From: Minisyncoccota bacterium
GTDB lineage: Bacteria; Patescibacteriota; Minisyncoccia; Phycocordibacterales; UBA9973
Direction: 5' to 3'
DNA: 64,000 nucleotides
Assembly (NCBI GenBank): GCA_041666045.1
Contig: JBAYHR010000003.1
Location: 2,208 to 66,207, forward strand
This document shows positions 18,519 to 63,965 of the stretch, piece after piece. A program made the position numbers and the translations under genes. A model generated the notes under the pieces. It did not search any database and was not told the DNA's origin. It saw only the letters and a list, made by a program, of their open reading frames with translations. Within the stretch, counting starts at the first letter, position 1. Each line of letters begins with the position of its first letter.

Positions 18519-18551
18519 TAATTTCTGATTTAGTTAAAATATAGCTCGCGG
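18519..18551 (+). repeat. 33-bp direct repeat, copy 2 (abuts the 3' end of tRNA-Ser)
   Basis: TAATTTCTGATTTAGTTAAAATATAGCTCGCGG, 1 mismatch to copy 1. The last 3 nt overlap the tRNA discriminator and acceptor end. Confidence 0.85.
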
Positions 18552-18635
18552 AGGGTGGGAGATTCGAACTCCCGATGCCCTTACAGGCATACAGACTTTC
18601 CAGGTCTGCGCACTAGACCGCTATGCGAACCCTCC
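18549..18635 (-). tRNA. tRNA-Ser (anticodon GGA)
   Basis: Hand-folded as an 87-nt class II tRNA. It has a 7-bp acceptor stem GGAGGGT/ACCCTCC, anticodon loop CUGGAAA, a long variable arm, T-loop GTTCGAATC, discriminator G, and no encoded CCA. Confidence 0.8.
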
Positions 18636-18695
18636 ATATCCTTTAATCTACATTATTTTATAGAAAAAGAAAATGTGGTAATATATAAGTTATAT

Positions 18696-19148
18696 ATGAA
18701 AAAAATAATAACAAGATGTAGAGAAAAAACAACAGCTTATTTAAGTCACAGACCAAAGTTTTATGCGTTAATGGTTGGCATAGGTATCGTTTTATTTTGG
18801 AGAGGAGTATGGCATAGTACTGATTTTGTCCATACTTATTTTAATGTTTATCAAAACAATTTAACTGTTAGCGGATCTTTTTCACCTTGGTGGGACGGAC
18901 CTCTTTCTTTAGTAGTTGGTATTATTATTTTATATTTTACTGGTGCTTTTATTTCTAGTTTTATAGGAAATGAATTAATTCTTTTGGGTCTTCGTGGAGA
19001 AAAGAAACTTAGTCAAAAGACGGAAGGTGAAGTTAGGACTGAAATAGATTCTATTTTAGATATTAAGAATAATCTTAGCGATATAAATGAAAAGATTAGA
19101 GAACTAGAAGAGAAGTTAAAAAACAAAGAAGTTAATAAAAAGAGTTAG
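18696..19148 (+). CDS. membrane protein with C-terminal coiled coil
   Basis: The ORF-track N-terminus (18555-18695) overlaps the tRNA and is discarded. The Met at 18696 is followed by two TM helices and a K/E coiled coil. Confidence 0.5.
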   Translation: MKKIITRCREKTTAYLSHRPKFYALMVGIGIVLFWRGVWHSTDFVHTYFNVYQNNLTVSGSFSPWWDGPLSLVVGIIILYFTGAFISSFIGNELILLGLRGEKKLSQKTEGEVRTEIDSILDIKNNLSDINEKIRELEEKLKNKEVNKKS

Positions 19149-23472: not shown

Positions 23473-24621
23473 TTATCGAATTTGTGCACCAAAAGTTTTT
23501 TGAGTTGCTTCTTCTATTTTTTTATGAAGTTCGTCGATTTCAGAGGAAACTAAAGTTTTATCTAAAGATCGATAAGTAATTCTGAAAGCATAACTTATTT
23601 TTTCTACTCCAAATTTTTCAGTGTTTTCATATTTATCTAAAAGTTTTACTTCCTCCACTAAATCAGGAGCATTTTCTCTAACTAAATCAAAATAATCATT
23701 TGGAACAAAAGTATTTGGAACAATAAAAGAGATATCACGCACGATAGGTGGATATTTACTAACTTCTTCGAATTTATTTCCAAGTTTTAATTGTTTGATT
23801 ACACGTTCATCTTCAGACCAGAGTAAACGAATATCTGGTAAATCCATACTGATGATAGCTAGACGTTCAAGTCCAAAACCGAAAGCCCAATTGCTCCATT
23901 CATTTGGATCAAGTCCAAGATTTTTTATAATTGTATCTGTCATAATTCCACAACCGAGAACTTCAATCCATCTTCCAGCAATTTCAACTTCCATTTCAAG
24001 TGATGGGTCAGTATATGGGAAAGTGTCTTTATTGAATCTATATTTTATTTCAGGCCCAAAGACAGCTTTGGCAATATCAGCTAAAACATTTTGTAAATCT
24101 TCTATGCCTATAACTCTTTTGCTTTTTGGAATTAAGAAACCGCCATCCATTTGATGGAAAACATTCATATGATTGCGATCAATTTCATCTTTTCTATATA
24201 CTTTACCAAAAGAGAAAAAGCCGACTGCTTCACCACGCGATATTTTTTCTTTTACTTCTGGCTGTGATAAATAGTAATACCACATTATAGTTGTGTGTGG
24301 GCGTAAAATATTTGTATCATCAATAAAATAAGTATCAGAGTGTGAACGAGCAGGATGATTAGGAGCGAAATTATAAAGATCGAAAGTTACACTTGTAGGT
24401 ACTATTTCTGGACTTTTAATAATATCAAAATTTTTGAAATCAGGTTGAGCTAAAATTCTTTCTACTATTTCATTAATAGGGGAAGATGGAGTACGGGACA
24501 AGTCTGGCATAGACATATATCGTTTCATTTGGAGAGATTCAGTATCGTTCCTGGCTTCTAATTTTTGAAGTAATTCTTTTTCTTCTGGCAATTTAATATC
24601 GTATTCTTTGTTAGTAATCAT
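23473..24621 (-). CDS. pheS: phenylalanine--tRNA ligase, PheS-type catalytic core fused to a C-terminal FDX-ACB anticodon-binding domain (monomeric/mitochondrial-type architecture)
   Basis: Class II motifs (FPYTDPSLEMEV, FGFGLERLAI). The C-terminal ~95 aa carry YPPIVRDISFIVP ... ISYAFRITYRS, typical of the PheT B8 / FARS2 C-terminal domain. Confidence 0.85.
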   Translation of the reverse strand: MITNKEYDIKLPEEKELLQKLEARNDTESLQMKRYMSMPDLSRTPSSPINEIVERILAQPDFKNFDIIKSPEIVPTSVTFDLYNFAPNHPARSHSDTYFIDDTNILRPHTTIMWYYYLSQPEVKEKISRGEAVGFFSFGKVYRKDEIDRNHMNVFHQMDGGFLIPKSKRVIGIEDLQNVLADIAKAVFGPEIKYRFNKDTFPYTDPSLEMEVEIAGRWIEVLGCGIMTDTIIKNLGLDPNEWSNWAFGFGLERLAIISMDLPDIRLLWSEDERVIKQLKLGNKFEEVSKYPPIVRDISFIVPNTFVPNDYFDLVRENAPDLVEEVKLLDKYENTEKFGVEKISYAFRITYRSLDKTLVSSEIDELHKKIEEATQKTFGAQIR

Positions 24622-24706
24622 TCTCTAAATATAATGAAAAATAGCTTAAAAGTAAAGGGGAAAAGACTAGTATTTAATACGAATTTTTGTTATTATATAA
24701 AAATAA

Positions 24707-26779
24707 ATGGCTAAAGAAAAAGAAGACAAAAAGGTACATCATTATAACGCAGAAGACATTTCAGTTCTTGAAGGTCTTGAACCAGTACGACGTCGTCCTG
24801 GTATGTATATAGGAACCACTGGTCCTGAAGGATTACATCATTTGATATGGGAAATTTTTGATAACTCTCGCGATGAAGCGATGGGAGGTTTTTGTAATGA
24901 TATTGAAGTTGTTGTGCTTCCTGGAAATCGTATTCGTGTAGCAGACAACGGCCGTGGTATTCCGGTTGATATTCATAAAAAAACAAAAGTGTCAGCTCTT
25001 GAAACTGTTATGACGACTTTGCATGCTGGAGGAAAATTCGGAGGTGAAGGATATAAAGTTTCTGGAGGTTTGCACGGAGTGGGTGCATCTGTTGTGAATG
25101 CTCTTTCTATTTATACAAAAGCAGAAGTGCATCGTGATGGAGGGAAGTATATGCAAGAATATGTGCAAGGAAAGAAAAAAGCTGCAGTTAAAAAAATAGG
25201 TTCATCAAAACTTAATGGATCTATTATTACGTTTCAGCCTGACGTAGAAATTTTTAAAGATATTAAATTTGATTGGAATACTATTGTTAGTCATATTCGT
25301 CAGCAAGCATATTTAGTGAAAGGTTTGAAAATTTTAATAATTGATGCGCGAGAATGGGACAATACAAAAGGACTTGATGATTCTGATGTTTTTTATTTTC
25401 GAGATCTTGGATTGGAACTTCCATCCACTTCTTTTTATTTCGAAGGTGGTTTAACTTCTCTTATTAAGTATTACAACAAATTTCAAAAACCAATTCAAAG
25501 TAATATTTTTTATGTTGAAAAAGAACTCGATAGTGTTGGAGTTGAAATCGCTCTTCAATATGTTGACGATATAGTAGATCGTATCATTCCTTTCGCTAAC
25601 AATATTTACACAGCAGAAGGAGGTACACATGTGACTGGTTTTAAAACTGCGCTTACAAGAACTTTAAATACATATTGCAAGAAGAATGAAATGATGAAAG
25701 AGTCTGAAGGTGGCTTCACCGGAGACGACGTTCTTGAAGGATTAACCGTTGTTATTTCTGTAAAACTTCGTGAAATTCAATTCGAAGGTCAGACTAAAGC
25801 AAAACTCGGAAGTATGGAAGCTCAAGGAGCGGTAGGAACTGTGTTTAGTGAAGCATTTGCTGCATTCTTAGAGGAAAACCCAGATGAGGCAAAAGTTATC
25901 ATTAATAAGTCAATTTTGGCCTTAAAGGCTCGTAAAGCTGCTAAAGCTGCGAAAGATTCAGTATTAAGAAAGGGTGCATTAGAAGGAATGACTCTTCCTG
26001 GAAAGTTGGCAGATTGTCAAAGTAAGAGTGCAGAAGAATCAGAATTGTTCTTGGTGGAGGGAGATTCCGCAGGAGGTTCAGCTAAACAAGGACGTGATAG
26101 ACGTATTCAAGCTATCCTTCCTCTTCGTGGAAAAATTTTGAATGTTGAACGTGCTCGTATTGATAAAATGCTTGCTTCAAAAGAAATAAGATCACTCGTG
26201 ATAGCTATGGGTACTTCAATAGGAGATACTTTTGATCTTGAAAAGATGCGTTATCATAAAATAATTATTGCGACAGATGCCGATGTTGACGGAGCGCACA
26301 TTCGTACACTTCTTCTTACTTTGTTTTATAGATATTTTAGACAAATTGTTGAAGCGGGATATATTTATATTGCTCAACCTCCACTTTATAAAATAAAGAA
26401 AGGTAAAGAAGTAAACTATGCTTATTCAGATGAAGAGAAAATAAAAATTATTGGAAAAGGTGTAGATGTGAGTGAGATAGAAAATTTGGAAGATCAAGTT
26501 GGTGGGGAAGAAGCCGAAGGTCCTGAGCTTGTCGAAGGAAAGGAGAGTAAAACTAAATCAACCAAAGTACATATTCAAAGATATAAAGGTCTCGGAGAAA
26601 TGAATCCAGAAGAACTTTGGGAGACAACAATGGATCCAGAACATCGTATCATTAAAAAAGTTGATATATCAGATGCAGAAGAAGCAAATAAAGTTTTTGA
26701 TATTCTCATGGGCTCCGAAGTTCCTCCACGTAAATCTTTTATTCAATCAAATGCAAAATTAGCAGATATTGATATTTAA
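24707..26779 (+). CDS. gyrB: DNA gyrase subunit B (type IIA topoisomerase B subunit)
   Basis: GHKL ATPase motifs (ILVEGLHH-like, GLHGVGASVVNALS), TOPRIM (LVEGDSAGGSAKQGRDR, PLRGKILNVE) and the C-terminal tail. GyrB versus ParE cannot be resolved here. Confidence 0.85.
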   Translation: MAKEKEDKKVHHYNAEDISVLEGLEPVRRRPGMYIGTTGPEGLHHLIWEIFDNSRDEAMGGFCNDIEVVVLPGNRIRVADNGRGIPVDIHKKTKVSALETVMTTLHAGGKFGGEGYKVSGGLHGVGASVVNALSIYTKAEVHRDGGKYMQEYVQGKKKAAVKKIGSSKLNGSIITFQPDVEIFKDIKFDWNTIVSHIRQQAYLVKGLKILIIDAREWDNTKGLDDSDVFYFRDLGLELPSTSFYFEGGLTSLIKYYNKFQKPIQSNIFYVEKELDSVGVEIALQYVDDIVDRIIPFANNIYTAEGGTHVTGFKTALTRTLNTYCKKNEMMKESEGGFTGDDVLEGLTVVISVKLREIQFEGQTKAKLGSMEAQGAVGTVFSEAFAAFLEENPDEAKVIINKSILALKARKAAKAAKDSVLRKGALEGMTLPGKLADCQSKSAEESELFLVEGDSAGGSAKQGRDRRIQAILPLRGKILNVERARIDKMLASKEIRSLVIAMGTSIGDTFDLEKMRYHKIIIATDADVDGAHIRTLLLTLFYRYFRQIVEAGYIYIAQPPLYKIKKGKEVNYAYSDEEKIKIIGKGVDVSEIENLEDQVGGEEAEGPELVEGKESKTKSTKVHIQRYKGLGEMNPEELWETTMDPEHRIIKKVDISDAEEANKVFDILMGSEVPPRKSFIQSNAKLADIDI

Positions 26780-27030: not shown

Positions 27031-27315
27031 ATGCCTAAAAATAAAGATATTTTAGAAAAAAGAGATAAAAATTATTATTCTGCACCAGAGATAGCCAAAC
27101 TCCTTGGTGTTTCTAGGGTGGCAATTTTTAAGAAAATTAAATCTGGTCAAATACATGCAGAAAAAATTGGTAGAAACTACATTATTCCAAAAGAAGAATA
27201 TGCTGCTATTTTAGGTCTTGTTATACCAGAACGTAGAAAAAGGGATATAGAAAATGCGGTTGAAAGAGTTGTAAAAAAATATGGTCCTGCGCTTCGCAAG
27301 CTTGGGGAAGAATAA
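27031..27315 (+). CDS. excisionase-family HTH (HTH_17) DNA-binding protein; putative antitoxin/Xis of the islet
   Basis: SAPEIAKLLGVSRVAIFKKIKSGQIHAEKIGRNYIIPKEEY matches the excisionase-type HTH. Followed 3 nt later by a Doc toxin gene. Confidence 0.7.
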   Translation: MPKNKDILEKRDKNYYSAPEIAKLLGVSRVAIFKKIKSGQIHAEKIGRNYIIPKEEYAAILGLVIPERRKRDIENAVERVVKKYGPALRKLGEE

Positions 27316-27318
27316 TAT

Positions 27319-27762
27319 ATGGCACGTCAAGTAATAAAACGTATTAATTTGGCAGATGTGGAATATGTTGCTTTTAAGCTTGCTCAAAAATTTATGGAAT
27401 GGAATGAACCTATTCCAGATTTTAAAACACGTTTTCCTTATAAATTAGAAAGTTGTATTGAAACACCATTCCAGACTTTTGAAAGAAAAAGTTTATATAA
27501 AGGTTTAGTAGAAAAATCATCAATACTTTTTTATTTGATGGTAAAAAATCATCCATTTCAAAATGGGAATAAAAGGATTGCAATTACAACATTGATTTTC
27601 TTTTTAATACAAAATAGTAAGTGGCTTTCTGTATCGGATCAAAGTATTTATGAATTCGCGCGTGAAGTTGCAGAAAGTAAACCTGAAAATAGAGATGAAC
27701 AAATGCTTTCTATTCGTTCTTTTATTGAAAATAATATTGAAGATTATGATCCAAGTAAATAA
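27319..27762 (+). CDS. doc: Doc-family toxin (Fic/Doc fold)
   Basis: HPFQNGNKR matches the Doc-specific variant of the Fic motif, HxFx(D/N)GNKR. Confidence 0.75.
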   Translation: MARQVIKRINLADVEYVAFKLAQKFMEWNEPIPDFKTRFPYKLESCIETPFQTFERKSLYKGLVEKSSILFYLMVKNHPFQNGNKRIAITTLIFFLIQNSKWLSVSDQSIYEFAREVAESKPENRDEQMLSIRSFIENNIEDYDPSK

Positions 27763-28700: not shown

Positions 28701-28737
28701 TTATTTTTTATTTTCTACTAGGTCTTTAATTTTTGCG
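28701..28737 (+). repeat. 37-bp direct repeat, copy 2 (authentic 3' end of thrS)
   Basis: Identical 37-mer forming the last 11 codons plus stop of thrS. Confidence 0.85.
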
Positions 28738-30494
28738 AGGAAATCGGAAGATGTAATGTTTTCTAATTTTTCACCTTCACGTCCTTCTACTGTTAGAGTT
28801 TTTGTTTCTTTTTCTTTATCACCAATAACTACAAGATATGGAATCTTTTGCATTTTTGCGCCACGGATTTTTTTACCTAAAGATTCATTTGTATCATCAA
28901 GTTCTACTCGCACTCCATTTTCTTTAAGAGTTTTGAAAACTTCATTAGCAAAATCTAAATGTTTGTCTGTAGAAATTGGTAATATTTTCACTTGAACAGG
29001 GGAAAGCCACAAAGGAAATGCTCCTGCGAAGTGTTCTATAAGCACACCCATGAATCTTTCAAGTGAGCCTGAAATAGCACGATGGATTACCACAGGGCGT
29101 TCTTTTTCATTCTTTTCATTTGCAAAGGATAAATCAAAACGTTCTGGTAAGTTGAAATCACATTGTATTGTAGCAAGTTGCCATTCTCGGCCGATTGAAT
29201 CTTTAAACATAAAGTCTAATTTTGGGCCATAAAAAGCTGCTTCATCTTTCGCTTCACGATAAGGAAGTTTTTCACTTTCACAAACATCTCTCAATGCTTT
29301 TTCTGCTGTGTCCCAAACTTCATCAGATCCTAGATATTTTGTTTTATCATCTCCGCGTAAAGAAAGACGAACCCAGTAATTGTTCATCATTCCGATAACT
29401 CCGTAAAATTCTTTTATGATATTTATGATAGTTTTTATTTCATCACCAATTTGATCTTTTCTGCAGAAAAGATGTCCGTCGTCTTGAGTGATAGCTCGTA
29501 CGCGGGTGAGTCCACCTAATTGTCCAGATTTTTCATCTCTATAAACTGTAGCTGGTTCGAAATATCGGACAGGCATATCACGATAAGAATATTGATCATC
29601 AATAAAGATTTGCATATGGTGAGGGCAGTTCATTGGTTTTAAGAAAAACTTCTCTTCTTTTCCTTGAACACGGAAAAGTTCATCACCAAATTTTGCAGCA
29701 TGTCCTGAAGTTTCGTAAAGTTTTTCTTTTGCTATATGAGGAGTCCATACTCTGGAGTATCCTTTGTCTTTATGTAAATCCCAAAGAAAATCTTCAATAG
29801 CTTTTCGAATAATCATTCCTTTTGGTTTTATAAGTGGCAAACCAGCTCCAACTAAATCAGAAATAGTGAAAAGTCCTAATTCGCGTCCTAATTTTTTATG
29901 GTCTCTTTTTTTAGCTTCTTCTCTTTGATTTATAAAAGCCTCGAGTTCTTCTTTATTTTCAAATGCAAGTCCGTAAATACGAGTAAGCATTTTGTTTTTT
30001 TCATCTCCGCGCCAGTATGCTCCCGCCACGCGATCTAATTTGAAACAATCAGGTGAGATTTCTTTTGAAGGATTTTCCATATGTCCTCCACGGCAAAGAT
30101 CTGTAAATTTACCACAAGTATAAAGAGTTATTTTTTCATTTTTTAATCCATCTATCAATTCTGTTTTGTATTCATTACCAGAAAAATATTTTTTTGCTTC
30201 ATCAAAAGTTTTTTCTTCTACAGAAAATTCTTTCCAAGTTTTTAATATTTCTCGCATCTTCTTTTCTATCTTTGGAAGATCTTTATCAGAAATAGGGGAT
30301 TTGAAATCAAAGTCATAATAAAATCCGTCATCTATTGGTGGCCCTAAAGTCACTTTTGTTTCAGGATATATTTCCAAAACAGCTGCTGCTAAAAGGTGAG
30401 CTAAAGAATGTCTTAAATTGTGTAATTTATCGTTTGTTTCCATAAGTCTTATAATATCATATTTTTTTATTTTTTCTACTAATTTATTTTGCAT
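28701..30494 (-). CDS. thrS: threonine--tRNA ligase
   Basis: N2 editing domain (RHSLAHLL), class II core (RDHKKLGRELGLF, HRAISGSLERFMGVLIEH) and a C-terminal anticodon-binding domain. Confidence 0.9.
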   Translation of the reverse strand: MQNKLVEKIKKYDIIRLMETNDKLHNLRHSLAHLLAAAVLEIYPETKVTLGPPIDDGFYYDFDFKSPISDKDLPKIEKKMREILKTWKEFSVEEKTFDEAKKYFSGNEYKTELIDGLKNEKITLYTCGKFTDLCRGGHMENPSKEISPDCFKLDRVAGAYWRGDEKNKMLTRIYGLAFENKEELEAFINQREEAKKRDHKKLGRELGLFTISDLVGAGLPLIKPKGMIIRKAIEDFLWDLHKDKGYSRVWTPHIAKEKLYETSGHAAKFGDELFRVQGKEEKFFLKPMNCPHHMQIFIDDQYSYRDMPVRYFEPATVYRDEKSGQLGGLTRVRAITQDDGHLFCRKDQIGDEIKTIINIIKEFYGVIGMMNNYWVRLSLRGDDKTKYLGSDEVWDTAEKALRDVCESEKLPYREAKDEAAFYGPKLDFMFKDSIGREWQLATIQCDFNLPERFDLSFANEKNEKERPVVIHRAISGSLERFMGVLIEHFAGAFPLWLSPVQVKILPISTDKHLDFANEVFKTLKENGVRVELDDTNESLGKKIRGAKMQKIPYLVVIGDKEKETKTLTVEGREGEKLENITSSDFLAKIKDLVENKK

Positions 30495-54405: not shown

Positions 54406-57400
54406 TTGGGTTGTTTTTTTATAATAATTTTTATTTTTGGATTGGTTGTTTTAACAAAAGTAAACGCTGATGCCGATCAAATATATTTGCATTATGCAGA
54501 TAATACAGCTGGAGCAAAAATTTTAGATATTTATCAAAAAAAAGCTAATGCTGGTACCAATTCTGATAAATGGTTCCGTTGGGAGTTTTTTCAATATACT
54601 AGTGACGCTTGGGATTTACAACAAAACTCGGTTGGTCATGTTTCTACCTTAGATCTACAAACAACTAGAGATGACTTTACTTATGTGAATGGTTCTGGCG
54701 ATGCAGGAACTTGGACTGATGTTACTGTTGGTAATATTGTGGCTAAACGAAGAATCTCTTCAACAAACTATGAACCATACAGTGCTTATGCCACCTATAC
54801 AGCTACTGATAACTATAATGATGTCTATTTAGGTGTTCATATGGTTGGTACTGTAGGTGGTGTGATAAGGGTAAAAATTAATGGTGTTGTTTCGACAAAT
54901 AATTTAGTTGGGTTAAATACCACTATGGGGTTAAATACAAATGGGGAATTCGACGAGGGACATTATTTAACAGACAATGTTAATCCTCGATGGATTCATA
55001 TTGCTACAAATATTAACACTGGTGATGTAATTACAATTGAAGTAAAAGGTAGTACTGACGCACACAATAGACATGACATCACTGGATTGAAATTATATAA
55101 GGATGCAAATCCAGGTGATGCCAATTGGGTCTATTTAAAATCTCATGATGTAATGGATAATCCAAGTGAACAATATGTGGCGATCAGTGGTAATATCCCC
55201 GGTCAAGCTGTTGGATATAAATTTGGAATTGCTCATGGACACGAATATAACGCGGCCATTACCATTAATTTAGATGGCACTGCTTATGTTTTAGATTCTG
55301 ATTTGTCATACAACCAAGTTATTATTGGAAATACTTTAGACATTACTGGCATTTCCACTTGTTATGGAGATACAAAAACTACTGATGATTTTGGTACTTT
55401 AACTCGAGCTATGGTATTTGAGGGGAATACTTTAATTGAATCGTGGGCATTAGCTTTTACTACCGATTTTCAAGTTGCAAATGTTTATACTACAATGTGG
55501 CCAGCCGATTATAGCACCGATAAATTATTTCGCTATGTAAAATTTAGTGATAATTTCGTTGTTGACCTTCCGAATGATGGGGTTGTTTTTCCAATGCAAG
55601 TTGGCCCAAGTGTTGCTAGTGGACGAATGGAATATTTTGGTGGAACAGCAAACTTAAAAGTTACCATACAAACTACCGCCCCATTGCAAGAAGAATGGAT
55701 TACAAATAATGGGCAAAAAAGTTATTTTCGTGGTTCTACAAATCACTATGTTGGTTCGTTCCATAATGGTGATTCTTTTAGCAGTACTGCTACTATCACT
55801 TTAAATTACGAAACTCCAACTGATGTAGATTGGTCTGGTAAAACTTTATATATTGCAAAAAATAAAACGATAAGTACGAATGATGATTTTGTTCCTTTTG
55901 ATGGTAAGGGTTTAGTAACAAAGTTTATGGCAGGTAGTAATCTAGGACTGACCTTTAATAATTTTGCACCAACAAAAACATATTTTACAAGTCAAGATGA
56001 TGACAGTATTGGAATTGAGGAACGAAGTTCTGACCACTCTCCAGCGAAAGAGGATTGGGCAGGAATTTCGGTGAGTGGTGTGGCTAGTGCTACTCATAAT
56101 ATATTTTCTTATGGTACAACAGGTTTAACTTTAATTGGTAATGCTAATGCATATAATAATAGTTTTAATCAAAACACCACAGGTATTAATGCCTCATCAG
56201 GTTCAACAGTAAGAAATAATGCGTTGGTAAATATTACAACTTATACAACTGGTGCAGGGGATTTTGATTACAATTATTTTTCAGGAAATACAGAAACTCA
56301 TGGTAAATCAGGTGATCCTTTATTTATTAATGCTACTAATGCGAATTTTTCACTACAATCAACCTCTCTTGCAATTAACTCAGGAACCAACGTTTCTCTC
56401 ACTAGTGATTATTTAGGAAACCCAATAGTAGGACTTCCAGATATAGGAGCATACGAATTCCAAGCTCCAACAGTACCAACTTCACTTTCTCAATACAAAT
56501 CAGATGGAACAACAGCAATAATTTCTGGAACTTTCACGAATGAAAATAGTGTTGTTTTGAAATTCAATATGTCTTCATCAGAATATAATTCATCTGATTC
56601 ACTAACTCCACAAGTCGAGATTCAAGAATTAGGTACTGCATTTACGAACATTGTTACTAACTCCGGAGATGCGGTTGCTTACTCAGGTTCGGGAGTAACA
56701 GGAACAGTTTTGGTTACTGGCTTAACGAGTGGCAAAACATATCATTGGCAAGCAAGAATAAGTAATTCGGCTGGACAAAGTTCCTGGGTTGCCATGGGAG
56801 GTAGTCCAGATTTTCAAGTTGATACAACAATTCCAGTAATTACCTTACTTGGGGAAAGTTCAATTACTTTAACAAATGAACAATCATACACAGATGCAGG
56901 AGCTACAGCGATAGACAACATTGATGGAGACATTACTTCTTCCATTATCACAGTTAATCCAGTAGACGTAACTGTACCAGGAACATATACTATAACTTAC
57001 AATGTTACAGATGCTACTTTAAACGTAGCCACAGAAGTAACAAGAACAGTACGAGTGGAAATTTCATCAAGTACTGGTAGTAGCGGTTATCTTTCAGGTT
57101 CCTATCTCCTAGGTTATTTACCAAAAGCAATATCAACTATAACTTCAAAAATAGAATCAACAACTTTAATAACAACTTCAACAATTTCTGAAATACAAAA
57201 AGTAACAAAAGATTTAAAGTTTGGAATGACAAACAAAGATGTAAAAACACTGCAACTATTTTTAATTAAGCAAAATAAAGGGTCAAACGCAAAAGCTTTA
57301 GCAAAATATAATGGAACTAATTATTTTGGAAAGTTAACAAGATCTGCTTTAGCAGAATGGCAGAAAGCAAATAAAGTAATTCCTTCATATGGATACTTTG

Positions 57401-57441
57401 GAAAAATAACCAGAGCGAAGATTAAATTGTTGAATTTGTAA
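54406..57441 (+). CDS. large secreted surface protein: signal peptide, parallel beta-helix repeats, Ig-like/FN3-like modules, C-terminal PG_binding_1 domain
   Basis: Hydrophobic N-terminus with VNA|DA. Beta-helix-type repeats (NIFSYGTTGLTLIGNANAYNNSF..., DIGAYEF). The Ig-like module resembles DUF5011 (PVITLLGESSITLTNEQSYTDAGATAIDNIDGDIT). C-terminal peptidoglycan-binding-like repeat (LQLFLIK...GKLTRSALAEWQKAN). TTG start. Confidence 0.7.
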   Translation: MGCFFIIIFIFGLVVLTKVNADADQIYLHYADNTAGAKILDIYQKKANAGTNSDKWFRWEFFQYTSDAWDLQQNSVGHVSTLDLQTTRDDFTYVNGSGDAGTWTDVTVGNIVAKRRISSTNYEPYSAYATYTATDNYNDVYLGVHMVGTVGGVIRVKINGVVSTNNLVGLNTTMGLNTNGEFDEGHYLTDNVNPRWIHIATNINTGDVITIEVKGSTDAHNRHDITGLKLYKDANPGDANWVYLKSHDVMDNPSEQYVAISGNIPGQAVGYKFGIAHGHEYNAAITINLDGTAYVLDSDLSYNQVIIGNTLDITGISTCYGDTKTTDDFGTLTRAMVFEGNTLIESWALAFTTDFQVANVYTTMWPADYSTDKLFRYVKFSDNFVVDLPNDGVVFPMQVGPSVASGRMEYFGGTANLKVTIQTTAPLQEEWITNNGQKSYFRGSTNHYVGSFHNGDSFSSTATITLNYETPTDVDWSGKTLYIAKNKTISTNDDFVPFDGKGLVTKFMAGSNLGLTFNNFAPTKTYFTSQDDDSIGIEERSSDHSPAKEDWAGISVSGVASATHNIFSYGTTGLTLIGNANAYNNSFNQNTTGINASSGSTVRNNALVNITTYTTGAGDFDYNYFSGNTETHGKSGDPLFINATNANFSLQSTSLAINSGTNVSLTSDYLGNPIVGLPDIGAYEFQAPTVPTSLSQYKSDGTTAIISGTFTNENSVVLKFNMSSSEYNSSDSLTPQVEIQELGTAFTNIVTNSGDAVAYSGSGVTGTVLVTGLTSGKTYHWQARISNSAGQSSWVAMGGSPDFQVDTTIPVITLLGESSITLTNEQSYTDAGATAIDNIDGDITSSIITVNPVDVTVPGTYTITYNVTDATLNVATEVTRTVRVEISSSTGSSGYLSGSYLLGYLPKAISTITSKIESTTLITTSTISEIQKVTKDLKFGMTNKDVKTLQLFLIKQNKGSNAKALAKYNGTNYFGKLTRSALAEWQKANKVIPSYGYFGKITRAKIKLLNL

Positions 57442-62342: not shown

Positions 62343-63965
62343 ATGAAAATATTTAAGTTTAATAAGATTTTAATTATTGTTTTAGTTTTTGGGTTTACCC
62401 TTGGTTTAGTTGGATTAGTGGCAGTTAAAGCTGCGACTACAATAGATCTAGGCACAGCAGGTGATTTCTCAGTTTTAGCTGGTTCAGGTATTACTGATAC
62501 TGCTCCTTCTAATATTATTAGTGGAGATGTTGGATTAAGTCCAACAACTGGTGCAGCTATTGGGATACCCTCAACAGAGGTAAACGGAGTTATATATTCT
62601 GTTGATGGAGCTGGTACAGGTGATATAATGGATGCTAGTCGTTTAACTACAGCTAAGGGTGATTTAGTTACTGCTTATAATGCTGCTGCTACTGCGGGTT
62701 CAGCTACTACTATTACTGCCAGTTCAACTGACTCTTTTGGTTCTGGCACCATAACTAATGGCAACTCTTTGACACCAGGTGTATATAATTCTGGTTCTAC
62801 AATTGGTATTACGGGAACATTAGTACTTGATGGTGGTGGTGATGCAAACGCAGTTTTTATCTTTCAGGCTGGATCTTCACTTACTACAGCAACAGATAGT
62901 GTTGTTAGTCTTATAAATGGTACTCAGGCTTGTAATGTTTTTTGGCAAGTTGGTAGTGATGCAACACTTGGAACAAATTCTGAATTTTATGGAACCATAA
63001 TGGCTATCTCTTCAATTACAGATGATGGTGATTCAACAATTGAGGGAAGATTATTAGCTGATGCTAATGATAATACCACTGGTGCAGTTACATTAAACAA
63101 TACAACAATTACTGAATCTGTATGTGCTGTTGTTCCTGCTTCAGGAAGAACTCGTTTTATTGCGCAACTTCCACCTCCACTTATCAATGTTACAAAAATA
63201 CCAAATCCATTAGCTTTACCTTTAGGACCAGGATCTGTTACTTATAATTACATAGCAACAAATATAGGTGAAATTGCAATGAGTGATGTATGGGTTAGAG
63301 ATGATAAGTGTAGCTCTGTACAATTTATTTCTGGTGATGATAATAATAATTCTTTGCTTGATATAAATGAAGGATGGAAATATAGCTGTACTAAAACAGT
63401 TTCTGAAACTGAAACAAATACAGTTACTGCTCATGGTGCAACAACTAATGGTGAAGTATGGGATACTGCAAATGCAACTGTTGTTGTTGGTATACCAGTA
63501 ATTCCACCATTAATTCATTTAGTAAAAAAACCAAACATATCTTTACTTCCAGCTGGTGGTGGAGCCGTTACATATAACTATACAGTAACTAATCCTGGTA
63601 CAGTTCCATTAAACAATGTTAGTATCACTGATAATAAATGTACTGGTTTACCAGGTCGTGTTTTATCACATCCAGGAGATTTAAATAAAAATAATCTACT
63701 TGAAAGTAATGAAACATGGAGTTTCACTTGCCAAACTAATATTATACAAACAACAACAAATATCGGTACAGCTGAAGGTCATGCTAATGGTTTAACCGCG
63801 ATAGATTTCTCACCTGCTACTGTTGTTGTGGCACCAGTAGTTCCAAAACTTCCTAAAACAGGCTTTGGTTCTGAGAATAATATTTCTTGGAATATTATAA
63901 TACCAGCAGGTATTATGGGAATTTTAATTTCTTTTTATCTTGCTCGAAAAAAACAAACAAATTAA
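62343..63965 (+). CDS. surface protein: signal peptide, DUF3494 domain, two DUF11-type repeats, LPKTG sortase anchor
   Basis: LGTAGDFSVLAGSGITDTA...GDVGLSPT. Two ~95-aa repeats (VTYNY[IT]ATN[IP]G...). C-terminal LPKTG, a hydrophobic segment and an ARKKQTN tail. Confidence 0.7.
   Translation: MKIFKFNKILIIVLVFGFTLGLVGLVAVKAATTIDLGTAGDFSVLAGSGITDTAPSNIISGDVGLSPTTGAAIGIPSTEVNGVIYSVDGAGTGDIMDASRLTTAKGDLVTAYNAAATAGSATTITASSTDSFGSGTITNGNSLTPGVYNSGSTIGITGTLVLDGGGDANAVFIFQAGSSLTTATDSVVSLINGTQACNVFWQVGSDATLGTNSEFYGTIMAISSITDDGDSTIEGRLLADANDNTTGAVTLNNTTITESVCAVVPASGRTRFIAQLPPPLINVTKIPNPLALPLGPGSVTYNYIATNIGEIAMSDVWVRDDKCSSVQFISGDDNNNSLLDINEGWKYSCTKTVSETETNTVTAHGATTNGEVWDTANATVVVGIPVIPPLIHLVKKPNISLLPAGGGAVTYNYTVTNPGTVPLNNVSITDNKCTGLPGRVLSHPGDLNKNNLLESNETWSFTCQTNIIQTTTNIGTAEGHANGLTAIDFSPATVVVAPVVPKLPKTGFGSENNISWNIIIPAGIMGILISFYLARKKQTN

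What the first reader, a model, noticed from the sequence alone, without database searches (positions are those of the whole stretch)
23473..24621. PheS with fused C-terminal FDX-ACB anticodon-binding domain (mitochondrial-type monomeric PheRS architecture)
Seen in sequence:
- The 382-aa protein has a PheS class II core and a C-terminal ~95-aa module containing YPPIVRDISFIVP and ISYAFRITYRS. This module is characteristic of the PheT B8 domain and the FARS2 C-terminal domain.
- No pheT gene follows.

Established knowledge: canonical bacterial PheRS is an alpha2-beta2 tetramer that needs PheT for tRNA binding and editing.

Inference: this organism may use a minimal, editing-free monomeric PheRS.
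Basis: partly seen in the sequence, partly recalled or inferred. Interest (0 to 1): 0.55.

Follow-up and report, generated by a model that had tools for sequence, protein, structure and literature searches.

The report
Single-chain PheRS in CPR bacteria
This ultra-small (CPR, Paceibacteria) bacterium encodes a one-piece phenylalanyl-tRNA synthetase built like the human mitochondrial enzyme instead of the usual two-subunit bacterial one; it probably charges tRNA-Phe without any proofreading domain, but whether it is the cell's only PheRS could not be checked.

Summary
Window 23473-24621 (-) encodes an intact 382-aa protein with a PheS-type class II core (Pfam E 4.5e-52) and a complete C-terminal FDX-ACB anticodon-binding domain (E 1.7e-22). 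The AlphaFold model (pLDDT 94.7) superposes on human mitochondrial PheRS over both domains (TM 0.78).

The organism is a Candidatus Paceibacterota MAG. At least 341 GTDB species carry the gene, and Gracilibacteria have a related form.

The Phe-pocket, ATP and anticodon-contact residues are invariant across 117 family members. The gene is as conserved as gyrB. No pheT, editing domain or second pheS occurs in the window or in 1.29 Mb of relatives' loci.

It is not the NCBIfam "mystery ligase" SrmL. SrmL has altered pocket and anticodon residues and sits beside a query-type gene on one Giovannonibacteria contig.

It is also not a strict member of the mitochondrial family. It misses the TIGR00469 cutoff (238 vs 258 bits), which is why NCBI calls it "hypothetical", and it forms a bacterial sister clade with ancestral bacterial features.

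Best reading (about 0.72): it is the housekeeping, editing-free, single-chain PheRS of this lineage. Genome-wide absence of pheT and monomeric activity remain untested. No paper describing it was found.

The parts
23473..24621 (-). Complete gene for the 382-aa single-chain PheRS-like protein (stop codon at 23473-23475)
   Evidence: ORF. It is 100% identical to P0001, NCBI 'MAG: hypothetical protein WC264_02940 [Candidatus Paceibacterota bacterium]', which JGI names 'phenylalanyl-tRNA synthetase alpha chain'. GC is 0.32 vs 0.309 for the window.
24487..24621 (-). N-terminal element (aa 1-45) with two short helices, probably a vestige of the canonical PheS N-terminal coiled coil
   Evidence: The AF2 model has helices at aa 14-23 and 27-37. 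The TIGR00468 alignment starts at profile position 40. The segment is shared with the Gracilibacteria/Oligoflexia relatives and with SrmL, and is absent from the mitochondrial and phage-like sequences.
23791..24486 (-). Class IIc (PheS-type) catalytic core, aa 46-277
   Evidence: Pfam PF01409, E 4.5e-52. Bacterial PheS alpha chains match at E ~1e-35. Foldseek TMq is ~0.54 to bacterial alpha chains, which cover the core only.
24142..24207 (-). Motif 2 region GKVYRKDEIDRNHMNVFHQMDG (aa 139-160), including the ATP-binding Arg143 and FHQxDG
   Evidence: Nineteen of the 22 positions, including Arg143, are invariant in 117 family members; positions 147, 150, 154 and 158 vary conservatively. It aligns with E. 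coli GRVYRND..FHQMEG and human GDVYRRD..FHQLEA.
24010..24021 (-). Phe-pocket loop F201-P202-Y203-T204 (FPFT in E. coli and human). Thr204 corresponds to E. coli T251, T. thermophilus V261 and human T235
   Evidence: Invariant in 117 sequences. The residue equivalences come from PMC3275996 and the alignment. SrmL has HPYT here.
23860..23892 (-). Motif 3 NWAFGFGLERL (aa 244-254). Ala246 corresponds to E. coli A294 and T. thermophilus A314, the size gate for the para position of the substrate ring
   Evidence: Ala246 is invariant. The equivalence comes and PMC3275996. SrmL has LA[SLM]G at this site.
23761..23790 (-). Short linker (aa 278-287) between the end of the PheS-like core (..ERVIKQL, equivalent to the E. 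coli PheS C-terminus ..RFLKQFK) and the anticodon-binding domain
   Evidence: In the alignment, E. coli PheS ends at the position where the linker begins.
23476..23760 (-). FDX-ACB (PheT-B8-type) anticodon-binding domain, aa 288-382
   Evidence: Pfam PF03147 over the full profile, E 1.7e-22. TIGR00472 pheT_bact profile positions 690-798 of 798 match. PheT beta chains 2RHS_B and 1B70_B match aa 283-381. Identity is 35-39% to mitochondrial ACB domains and 24% to E. coli PheT B8.
23593..23637 (-). Putative anticodon (G34) contact set Asp329, Tyr331 and Ser343; the C-terminal Arg382 (nt 23476-23478) belongs to the same set
   Evidence: These residues are conserved in the CPR family, Gracilibacteria/Oligoflexia relatives, phage-like and mitochondrial sequences and E. 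coli PheT B8. In SrmL the aromatic, Ser and terminal Arg are replaced (T/I, N, no Arg); the Asp is largely kept. Their assignment as G34 contacts (T. thermophilus beta D729, Y731, S742, R780) is recalled from Goldgur et al. 1997 and was not verified here.
24622..24706 (.). 85-bp AT-rich divergent intergenic region shared with gyrB, presumed to hold the promoters of both genes. No T-box or other known leader RNA
   Evidence: Sequence. Rfam at gathering threshold found only tRNA-Ser in the whole window.
24707..26779 (+). gyrB, the conserved neighbour (context, not part of the enzyme)
   Evidence: ORF. The same divergent arrangement occurs in L001-L004. gyrB lies in the locus in 60 of 84 relatives and is directly divergent in 21 of the 67 with enough upstream sequence.

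Best explanation
The gene encodes the housekeeping phenylalanyl-tRNA synthetase of this Paceibacteria (CPR) bacterium, as a single polypeptide. The PheS-type class II core activates Phe with ATP and transfers it to tRNA-Phe. The fused C-terminal FDX-ACB domain, which is homologous to domain B8 of the bacterial beta subunit, reads the GAA anticodon. By analogy with human mitochondrial PheRS, it does so after swinging from a closed to an open position. Domains B1-B7 of the beta subunit, including the B3/B4 editing site, are absent, so the enzyme would have no cis-proofreading of Tyr-tRNA-Phe. Shown here: the domain architecture, the fold, conservation of catalytic, Phe-pocket and anticodon-contact residues, strong purifying selection, a wide distribution in Paceibacteria and Gracilibacteria, distinctness from SrmL, and absence of pheT in all DNA I could inspect. 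Inferred: Phe specificity, monomeric state, lack of editing in the cell, and that no canonical pheS-pheT exists elsewhere in the genome. Evolutionarily it belongs to a bacterial clade of fused PheS-ACB proteins that is sister to the mitochondrial plus phage-like clade. A simple origin would be an in-frame deletion in a pheS-pheT operon joining the end of pheS to B8; that origin is inference.
For: Architecture: Pfam core plus full-length FDX-ACB. Closest solved relatives: human mitochondrial PheRS at E 2.7e-62 across aa 60-380, against ~1e-35 for bacterial alpha chains. Fold: AF2 pLDDT 94.7 and pTM 0.90; Foldseek top hits 3CMQ/5MGH with TMq 0.78-0.79 and rmsd 3.1-3.5 A over ~388 columns. Active site: HPAR, DTYF, HTT, Arg143, FHQxDG, FPYT and WAFG (Ala246 = E. 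coli A294) are invariant in 117 family members. Anticodon set: D329, Y331, S343 and R382 are kept, as in PheT B8 and mitochondrial PheRS. Selection: 85.0% and 81.5% identity to the orthologs in L001 and L002, compared with GyrB 85.6/85.3, ThrRS 58, LigA 71 and SMC 65/60; the median over 84 loci is 64% vs GyrB 69% and ThrRS 55%. Housekeeping context: gyrB, thrS, rnc, smc and ligA nearby. Native GC. Distribution: 341 GTDB species genomes, including Nomura-, Zambryski-, Yanofsky- and Giovannonibacteria, and a related clade in Gracilibacteria/'gcode 4' bacteria that UniRef names Phenylalanyl-tRNA synthetase. No pheT or second pheS: tblastn with E. coli PheT and PheS over the window plus 84 loci (1.29 Mb) found only the B8-like segment inside the gene itself and exactly one PheS-like region per locus. 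Not SrmL: 235 < 300 bits, different signature residues, and co-residence of both gene types on one contig. The nearest 50%-cluster representative, P0121, passes the curated mitochondrial PheRS model at 264.3 > 258.35 bits.
Against: Whole genomes could not be read. Only about 64 kb of this genome was checked (genome size not determined here; Paceibacteria genomes are typically under 1 Mb, from general knowledge), so a canonical pheS-pheT elsewhere is not excluded. Other CPR groups do have a PheRS beta subunit (PMC5370408). A related fused protein in an Oligoflexia MAG (P0124) keeps PheRS-type residues yet sits among non-housekeeping genes, in a phylum expected to have canonical PheST. Intact signatures therefore do not prove sole-enzyme status. 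The query itself scores below the TIGR00469 cutoff. Three pocket-adjacent residues differ from the canonical state (Ser->Thr111, Glu->Asp159, Phe->Tyr203). Asp159 also occurs in sequences that pass TIGR00469, but Tyr203 is shared with SrmL. The tblastn screen used only E. coli PheT as probe and had no CPR positive control. Monomeric state and activity are untested.
Confidence: 0.72

Rival explanations
1. It is an active but auxiliary second PheRS. For example, it could be a stress-, antibiotic- or analog-resistant copy, or a supplier of Phe-tRNA for a side pathway. It would then coexist with a canonical (alpha-beta)2 PheST encoded elsewhere in the genome.
For: Genome-wide absence of pheST was not testable. 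The Oligoflexia homolog P0124 has intact PheRS-type residues in a non-housekeeping neighbourhood of GCS2, MR_MLE and M20 peptidase genes. Many CPR have a PheRS beta subunit (PMC5370408).
Against: CPR genomes are strongly reduced and rarely keep duplicate synthetases (general knowledge). The gene evolves as slowly as gyrB. It is present in at least 341 species, with gyrB in the locus in 60 of 84 relatives examined. No pheS or pheT segment was found in 1.29 Mb sampled around it in 84 genomes with varied local gene order.
Confidence: 0.18
2. It is a PheS-derived ligase with a different substrate, a member or close analogue of the NCBIfam family NF051887 'PheS-related mystery ligase SrmL', and not a tRNA-Phe synthetase.
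For: The NF051887 score (235.1 bits) nearly equals the mitochondrial PheRS score (238.4). In the NJ tree rooted on E. coli PheS, the query clade and SrmL fall in the same bacterial clade with 62-80% bootstrap. Tyr203 (FPY) is shared with SrmL (HPY).
Against: The score is below the 300-bit cutoff, whereas true SrmL scores 415. SrmL changes HPAR->ISR, DT[FY][FY]->YT[RH]Y, FHQxxG->PHQxD[IVL], FPF->HPY, WAFG->LA[SLM]G, the anticodon aromatic->T/I and Ser->Asn, and it loses the C-terminal Arg. The query family keeps the PheRS state at all of these sites, invariantly. An SrmL-type gene and a query-type gene lie 6.4 kb apart on the same Giovannonibacteria contig, so they are paralogs with separate roles.
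Confidence: 0.04
3. It is foreign DNA: a recent transfer from a eukaryote (mitochondrial PheRS gene) or a huge phage, or a binning or assembly contaminant, and so not a native feature of the bacterium.
For: The best solved match is the human mitochondrial enzyme. Short mitochondrial-model-positive homologs occur on phage-like contigs.
Against: GC content is native. The gene is embedded between gyrB and other bacterial core genes on contigs up to 914 kb in at least 341 species. It forms a clade separate from the mitochondrial plus phage-like sequences (bootstrap 80-95% for that clade excluding it). It retains canonical bacterial states that the mitochondrial clade has lost: the N-terminal helix, the DPxxYSG segment and the PheT-like loop length.
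Confidence: 0.02

Closest known systems
Mitochondrial phenylalanyl-tRNA synthetase (human FARS2, PDB 3CMQ/3TUP; yeast MSF1; TIGR00469 pheS_mito; 'PheRS-M' in AARS Online, PMC11580382)
   Same: Same two-domain single chain: PheS-type core, short linker, then an FDX-ACB (B8-type) anticodon-binding domain. Same fold over both domains (TM 0.78). Best sequence match (E 2.7e-62). Same Phe-pocket and anticodon-contact residues. No editing domain.
   Different: It is encoded in a bacterial chromosome, not a eukaryotic nucleus, and has no targeting peptide. It lacks the 30-60 aa insertion between motifs 2 and 3 seen in mitochondrial sequences. It keeps an N-terminal helical remnant, the bacterial DPxxYSG segment and a PheT-like loop length in the ACB domain. 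It scores below the curated family cutoff and falls in a sister clade.
Canonical bacterial (alpha-beta)2 PheRS, PheS plus PheT (E. coli 3PCO, T. thermophilus 1PYS/2IY5; TIGR00468 and TIGR00472)
   Same: The catalytic core is homologous to PheS (E ~1e-35) and the C-terminal domain to PheT B8. Several indel states match the canonical bacterial proteins.
   Different: It is one chain instead of two. It lacks beta-subunit domains B1-B7, including the B3/B4 editing site, and has only a stub of the alpha-subunit coiled coil. No pheT is adjacent. The TIGR00468 score is 160 against a cutoff of 237. [quoted passage not shown]
SrmL, 'PheS-related mystery ligase' (NCBIfam NF051887; e.g. Kibdelosporangium aridum WP_033381095.1; also in Giovannonibacteria KKT61027.1)
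   Same: Same overall layout (PheS-like core plus a degenerate FDX-ACB-like C-terminal domain) and similar length. It shares the N-terminal element and falls in the same bacterial clade in the NJ tree.
   Different: SrmL has replaced the PheRS pocket and anticodon residues and has a ~10-aa insertion in the ACB loop. It occurs in Actinomycetes with normal genomes. It co-resides with the query-type gene in a CPR contig. The query scores 235 against a 300-bit cutoff.
Single-chain PheRS genes of huge phages and nucleocytoviruses (viral PheRS grouping with organellar PheRS, PMC11304981; here the P0134/P0278 cluster on a 340-kb phage-like contig)
   Same: Same two-domain architecture, also without the mitochondrial insertion, at 345-360 aa. 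Identity to the query is 33-37%.
   Different: Those sequences pass TIGR00469 (260-308 bits), share the derived deletions of the mitochondrial clade and group with it. They sit among phage-type genes, whereas the query is chromosomal and belongs to the other clade.

Membership tests
Mitochondrial-type single-chain PheRS (TIGR00469 / PheRS-M; FARS2, MSF1) | PheS-type class IIc catalytic core | tested here: met
   PF01409 at aa 46-277, E 4.5e-52. Motifs 2 and 3 align with human and E. coli enzymes.
Mitochondrial-type single-chain PheRS (TIGR00469 / PheRS-M; FARS2, MSF1) | FDX-ACB (B8-type) anticodon-binding domain fused C-terminally in the same polypeptide | tested here: met
   PF03147 at aa 288-382, profile 1-94 of 94, E 1.7e-22. 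The ORF is continuous.
Mitochondrial-type single-chain PheRS (TIGR00469 / PheRS-M; FARS2, MSF1) | Whole-chain structural similarity to solved mitochondrial PheRS | tested here: met
   AF2 pLDDT 94.7. 3CMQ/5MGH match with TMq 0.78-0.79 and rmsd 3.1-3.5 A over ~388 columns.
Mitochondrial-type single-chain PheRS (TIGR00469 / PheRS-M; FARS2, MSF1) | Score at or above the curated equivalog cutoff (258.35 bits) | tested here: not met
   238.4 bits. The nearest 50%-cluster representative P0121 passes at 264.3.
Mitochondrial-type single-chain PheRS (TIGR00469 / PheRS-M; FARS2, MSF1) | Membership of the organellar clade and its shared indels | tested here: not met
   In the NJ tree rooted on E. coli PheS, mitochondrial plus phage-like sequences form a clade without the CPR family (80-95% bootstrap), and CPR groups with the Gracilibacteria/Oligoflexia forms and SrmL (62-80%). 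CPR lacks the mitochondrial deletions and insertion. This is NJ with one outgroup only, so support is moderate.
Mitochondrial-type single-chain PheRS (TIGR00469 / PheRS-M; FARS2, MSF1) | Phe-pocket residues (FPF/T loop, size-gate Ala) and anticodon-contact residues conserved | tested here: met
   F201, P202, T204, A246, R143, and D329, Y331, S343 and R382 are conserved; the catalytic residues are invariant in 117 sequences. The minor changes are F->Y203, E->D159 and S->T111.
Mitochondrial-type single-chain PheRS (TIGR00469 / PheRS-M; FARS2, MSF1) | Acts without a beta subunit or editing domain (no PheT in the compartment or organism) | tested here: inconclusive
   No PheT B1-B7 segment in the 64-kb window or in 84 loci of relatives totalling 1.29 Mb.
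Mitochondrial-type single-chain PheRS (TIGR00469 / PheRS-M; FARS2, MSF1) | Monomeric quaternary state and Phe-tRNA-Phe synthesis | not testable with these tools
   This needs SEC-MALS or native mass spectrometry and aminoacylation assays.
Canonical bacterial PheS alpha subunit (TIGR00468) | Score at or above the curated cutoff (237.45 bits) | tested here: not met
   160.1 bits.
Canonical bacterial PheS alpha subunit (TIGR00468) | Long N-terminal coiled-coil domain, with the chain ending after motif 3 | tested here: not met
   Only 45 aa precede the core, with two short helices, and no N-terminal PheS domain was reported by Pfam. The chain continues for 105 aa beyond the point where E. coli PheS ends.
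Canonical bacterial PheS alpha subunit (TIGR00468) | Partner pheT gene (usually adjacent) | tested here: not met
   pheT is not adjacent, not in the window, and not within +-10 kb in 84 relatives. The rest of the genome is untested.
SrmL, PheS-related mystery ligase (NF051887) | Score at or above the curated cutoff (300 bits) | tested here: not met
   235.1 bits. Genuine SrmL P0223 scores 415.3.
SrmL, PheS-related mystery ligase (NF051887) | SrmL-specific residue pattern (HPYT, LA[SLM]G, PHQxD[IVL], loss of the anticodon aromatic, Ser and C-terminal Arg, long ACB-loop insertion) | tested here: not met
   The query has the PheRS state at every one of these sites.
SrmL, PheS-related mystery ligase (NF051887) | Orthology (one such gene per genome occupying the SrmL role) | tested here: not met
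   L093/L094 carry both an SrmL-type gene (P0437) and a query-type gene (62% identical to the query) 6.4 kb apart.

The most novel reading that the evidence does not exclude
Whole classes of CPR bacteria (Paceibacteria and Gracilibacteria) have completely replaced the supposedly universal prokaryotic (alpha-beta)2 PheRS with a single-chain, editing-free enzyme. This bacterial fused lineage shares a single fusion ancestor with mitochondrial (and huge-phage) PheRS. The 'mitochondrial' architecture would then have been invented in bacteria or their phages and acquired by early eukaryotes, rather than being built by domain loss after endosymbiosis.
Probability: 0.3. Interest if true: 0.78.

Novelty: new variant of a known kind. 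Interest (0 to 1): 0.57.

Why it matters
Textbook and review statements hold that prokaryotic PheRS is always an (alpha-beta)2 heterotetramer, and that the mitochondrial enzyme is the only monomeric class II core (PMC3275996). A large bacterial radiation using a roughly 380-aa one-chain PheRS would be an exception to that view.

- **Minimal enzyme:** it would show that Phe-tRNA-Phe proofreading by the beta subunit is dispensable in free-standing cells with tiny genomes. It would also provide a naturally minimal bacterial PheRS for enzymology and genetic-code engineering.
- **Origin of the mitochondrial enzyme:** a bacterial sister group makes the origin of mitochondrial PheRS directly testable by phylogenetics.
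- **Annotation gap:** the family falls between two curated models, so NCBI labels it 'hypothetical protein'. From memory, canonical pheS and pheT HMMs are used as single-copy markers. If so, completeness and phylogenomic pipelines would score these lineages as lacking them.

Tried and rejected
1. **Exact look-up of the window protein's contig**. It is not on record, so I could not extend beyond the window.
2. **Finding a CPR PheT seed.** P0141 looked like a core-only PheS, but it is a eukaryotic mitochondrial PheRS gene split by an intron. It gave no seed, and it also invalidated the rooting of my first NJ tree, which I discarded and replaced.
3. **Literature.** There was no mention of a single-chain PheRS in CPR and nothing at all on SrmL. 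The library lacks most subscription journals, so absence is weak evidence.
4. **Viral-contig scan with the phage-like homolog P0134**. No confirmed hit.
5. **A PheT-B2-like OB-fold ORF upstream of the gene in L081**. I considered it a possible pheT remnant, but it is present in only 1 of 84 loci, so it is not part of the system.
6. **Walking along the 300-900 kb contigs.** Rejected because each look-up gives only +-10 kb and too few look-ups remained.
7. **Searching the protein database with E. coli PheT.** Rejected because the word prefilter would return only close relatives of the probe.
8. **A regulatory leader (T-box).** None was found by Rfam, and the upstream region is only 85 bp.
Full report
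**1. Observation**

The window holds one intact ORF at 23473-24621 on the minus strand. It has an ATG start and encodes 382 aa.

- Pfam finds a PheS-type class II core at aa 46-277 (E 4.5e-52).
- Pfam also finds a complete ferredoxin-fold anticodon-binding domain at aa 288-382, covering profile positions 1-94 of 94 (E 1.7e-22).
- The downstream neighbour is a convergent DUF2779 gene and the upstream neighbour is divergent gyrB.
- None of the ten large ORFs I scanned in the window is a PheT.
- tblastn with E. coli PheS finds exactly one PheS-like region in the window, and tblastn with E. coli PheT finds nothing there at E<1.

**2. Source organism and distribution**

The protein is identical to NCBI 'MAG: hypothetical protein WC264_02940 [Candidatus Paceibacterota bacterium]', which JGI calls 'phenylalanyl-tRNA synthetase alpha chain'. 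The window has about 31% GC and typical CPR housekeeping content: gyrB, thrS, ligA, smc, RNase R and dnaG.

A scan of one genome per GTDB species found 341 genomes encoding a relative. The scan used six peptides specific to this protein, so 341 is a lower bound. The best 80 hits are labelled Nomura-, Zambryski-, Yanofsky- and Giovannonibacteria, Spechtbacterales, Minisyncoccia or Paceibacterota, on contigs up to 914 kb.

A more distant clade (39-46% identity) belongs to Candidatus Gracilibacteria and 'uncultured bacterium (gcode 4)' from the Rifle ACD genomes. UniRef names those proteins 'Phenylalanyl-tRNA synthetase'.

An exhaustive HMMER search of 1.84 billion cluster representatives found only 245 clusters at E<=1e-30, so the fused superfamily is compact.

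**3. What the protein looks like**

- *Sequence match.* The best match among solved structures is human mitochondrial PheRS (E 2.7e-62, aa 60-380). It is far ahead of bacterial PheS alpha chains (~1e-35), which cover only the core, and of PheT beta chains (~1e-7), which cover only aa 283-381.
- *Structure.* An AlphaFold2 model built from a 49-sequence alignment is very confident (pLDDT 94.7, pTM 0.90). It superposes on the closed form of human mitochondrial PheRS over both domains (3CMQ/5MGH: TMq 0.78-0.79, rmsd 3.1-3.5 A, ~388 columns). The tRNA-bound open form 3TUP gives TM 0.58, and bacterial alpha chains give ~0.54.
- *Fusion point.* E. coli PheS ends exactly where a 10-residue linker to the C-terminal domain begins.

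**4. Is it a real PheRS or a paralog with another job?**

NCBIfam raised a specific rival. The score against 'PheS-related mystery ligase SrmL' (NF051887, 235.1 bits, cutoff 300) nearly equals the score against mitochondrial PheRS (TIGR00469, 238.4 bits, cutoff 258.35). I resolved this in three ways.

(a) *Scores of genuine members.* Genuine SrmL (P0223) scores 415 bits. The query family's nearest 50%-cluster representative, P0121, passes TIGR00469 at 264 bits.

(b) *Residues.* The query family keeps the PheRS state at the sites below, and the catalytic and pocket signatures are invariant in 117 members. SrmL differs at the sites listed, in both the Actinomycete and the CPR versions.

| Site | Query family | SrmL |
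|---|---|---|
| Motif 1 region | HPAR | ISR |
| Following motif | DTYF | YT[RH]Y |
| HT[ST] motif | HTT | HTS (no clear difference) |
| Motif 2 | Arg143, FHQxDG | PHQxD[IVL] |
| Phe-pocket loop | FPYT | HPYT |
| Motif 3 | WAFG (Ala246) | LA[SLM]G |
| C-terminal domain | Asp329, Tyr331, Ser343, terminal Arg382 | aromatic->T/I, Ser->Asn, Arg lost (Asp largely kept) |

Ala246 is the counterpart of E. coli A294 and T. thermophilus A314. Thr204 is the counterpart of E. coli T251 and human T235. Both equivalences come from PMC3275996. The C-terminal set is also kept in E. coli PheT B8, in mitochondrial PheRS and in the phage-like group. That these four residues contact G34 is my recollection of the T. 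thermophilus complex (Goldgur et al. 1997) and was not verified here.

(c) *Co-residence.* SrmL occurs in Actinomycetes with ordinary genomes and also in CPR. On one Giovannonibacteria contig, an SrmL-type gene and a query-type gene (62% identical to the query, again beside gyrB) lie 6.4 kb apart. They are therefore co-resident paralogs, and the query is not SrmL.

**5. Is it the housekeeping enzyme?**

Evidence in favour:
- *Purifying selection.* Between this window and two related genomes the protein is 85.0% and 81.5% identical. The same genome pairs give GyrB 85.6/85.3, RNase III 81, ThrRS 58, LigA 71 and SMC 65/60. Over 84 loci the median is 64%, against GyrB 69% and ThrRS 55%.
- *Native gene in a conserved context.* Its GC is native. 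gyrB lies in the locus in 60 of 84 relatives, although the exact arrangement varies.
- *No pheT found.* In 1.29 Mb sampled around the gene in 84 genomes, E. coli PheT matched only through residues ~696-794 (B8), inside the fused gene itself. There was no B3/B4 or B5 segment, and each locus has exactly one PheS-like region.

Limits of the test:
- I could not read whole genomes.
- The probe was a single distant PheT, with no CPR positive control.
- Other CPR groups do have a beta subunit (PMC5370408).
- A related fused protein in an Oligoflexia MAG keeps PheRS-type residues in a non-housekeeping setting, so intact residues alone do not prove the gene is the only PheRS.

I therefore put about 0.9 on 'a genuine Phe-tRNA-Phe synthetase' and about 0.72 on the full statement that it is the sole, editing-free PheRS.

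**6. Mechanism**

- *Shown:* the domain plan, fold and residues.
- *Inferred:* the core forms Phe-AMP and transfers Phe to tRNA-Phe. The FDX-ACB domain binds the GAA anticodon. As in human mitochondrial PheRS, the predicted closed state would have to open for tRNA binding (PMC3275996; 3CMQ versus 3TUP).
- *Consequence:* with no B3/B4 domain there is no cis-editing. [quoted passage not shown] Conservative pocket differences (Tyr203 for Phe, Asp159 for Glu, Thr111 for Ser) might tune specificity, but that is speculation.

**7. Relationship to known families**

Rooted on E. coli PheS, a bootstrapped NJ tree gives two sister clades:
- a bacterial clade holding the CPR family, the Gracilibacteria/Oligoflexia forms and SrmL (62-80% support);
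- a clade of mitochondrial plus short phage-like sequences (80-95% support).

Rare-change characters agree with the tree:
- The bacterial clade keeps the canonical PheS 'DPxxYSG' segment, a remnant of the PheS N-terminal helix, and a PheT-B8-like loop length in the C-terminal domain.
- The mitochondrial and phage-like sequences share 2-3-residue deletions at those places.
- Mitochondrial proteins additionally carry a 30-60 aa insertion between motifs 2 and 3.

The C-terminal domain is nevertheless closer to mitochondrial ACB domains (35-39% identity) than to E. coli B8 (24%), and the fusion joint is the same. That favours one ancestral fusion over two independent ones.

So the enzyme works like a mitochondrial PheRS but is not a member of the organellar family. 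It fails both the curated cutoff and the clade test. The tree is NJ with a single outgroup and needs proper maximum-likelihood analysis.

**8. Novelty**

The architecture is known from mitochondria. Databases already hold these bacterial proteins under generic names (IMG 'alpha chain', UniRef 'Phenylalanyl-tRNA synthetase'), and NCBI calls this one 'hypothetical'.

I found no paper describing a single-chain PheRS in CPR or any bacterium. The 2010 review states that the heterotetramer is conserved in all known prokaryotes and that the mitochondrial enzyme is the only monomeric class II core. The searchable library is incomplete, so prior description elsewhere cannot be excluded.

I rate it a new variant of a known kind, with interest 0.57. 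It is moderately surprising to synthetase specialists and makes the origin of mitochondrial PheRS testable. Its key claim, no pheT anywhere in the genome, is still unverified.

Noticed in passing
L092 10001-11047 (ENA contig GROS21-1 scaffold_19, 340,874 bp); also L006, L007: A 348-aa PheS-core plus FDX-ACB protein passes the mitochondrial PheRS model (308 bits). It sits on a 340-kb contig full of small unannotated ORFs with PhageMetallopep, an SNF2 helicase and PcfJ, which looks like a huge phage encoding its own single-chain PheRS. This 'short' group clusters with mitochondrial PheRS.
   Followed up: partly
L093 9735-12675 and L094 6436-9376: In Giovannonibacteria, the SrmL-type gene is preceded by an 89-aa ORF whose stop overlaps its start. 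It faces a convergent class IIb synthetase gene (PF00152, 482 aa), and gatC and an amidase (gatA-like) lie just upstream. This may be a clue to what the 'mystery ligase' acts on.
   Followed up: no
L081 3537-3959: A free-standing 140-aa tRNA-binding OB-fold protein resembles PheT domain B2 (E. coli PheT residues 39-148, E 1.5e-15). It lies immediately upstream of, and co-oriented with, the fused PheRS gene. It was found in only 1 of 84 loci.
   Followed up: yes
L009 9463-10833 and L010 154-1524: The Gracilibacteria-type homolog P0127 does not translate to the recorded protein under table 11. That is consistent with UGA recoding in this lineage ('gcode 4' labels). It lies next to an F-type ATP synthase operon.
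   Followed up: partly
L005 3319-4296 and 4416-4595: A metagenomic 'protein' of 295 aa (P0141) is really a eukaryotic mitochondrial PheRS gene interrupted by an intron of roughly 150 nt (exact boundaries not mapped). The FDX-ACB domain continues in the next exon, so gene callers truncated it.
   Followed up: yes
window 23473-24621 (annotation issue): The protein falls between two curated NCBIfam models (TIGR00469 at 238 < 258 bits; NF051887 at 235 < 300 bits). PGAP therefore names it and many orthologs 'hypothetical protein', which is a systematic annotation gap for a likely essential gene.
   Followed up: yes
window 28701-30494 (-) versus L001 4960-6714 and L002 5479-7242: ThrRS is only ~58% identical between genomes whose neighbouring genes are 80-86% identical. 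This could reflect unusually fast evolution or xenologous replacement of thrS.
   Followed up: no
window 27031-27762 (+): A small HTH_17 protein (94 aa) is followed 4 bp later by a Fic/DOC-family protein (147 aa), a toxin-antitoxin-like pair inserted between gyrB and a uracil-DNA glycosylase gene. The Pfam-annotated gene lists of the corresponding stretch in L001 and L002 show no Fic/DOC or HTH_17 gene.
   Followed up: no
window 18548-18635 (-) and 18555-19148 (+): The only tRNA gene in the window, tRNA-Ser(GGA), is overlapped on the opposite strand by the 5' end of a 197-aa GTG-start ORF with no convincing Pfam match. The ORF start is probably mis-set or the ORF is spurious.
   Followed up: no
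window 54406-57441 (+) and 62343-63965 (+): The window also encodes large secreted or surface-type proteins. One is 1011 aa with a bacterial Ig-like domain. The other is 540 aa with an ice-binding-like domain plus DUF7507.
   Followed up: no
L015-L021 and many others: Dozens of ENA third-party MAGs titled 'uncultured Candidatus Saccharibacteria bacterium' carry this gene at 60-84% identity, alongside MAGs labelled with Paceibacteria-class names (Nomura-, Zambryski-, Yanofsky-, Giovannonibacteria). The Saccharibacteria label looks like a generic or wrong taxonomic assignment.
   Followed up: no
L008 10001-11245 (Oligoflexia MAG GCA_019694465.1): A 414-aa fused PheS-ACB protein with intact PheRS-type residues occurs in a non-CPR bacterium. 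Its neighbours are GCS2, two MR_MLE-family enzymes, an M20 peptidase and a beta-lactamase-like gene. It may be an accessory PheRS linked to peptide or amino-acid metabolism.
   Followed up: partly
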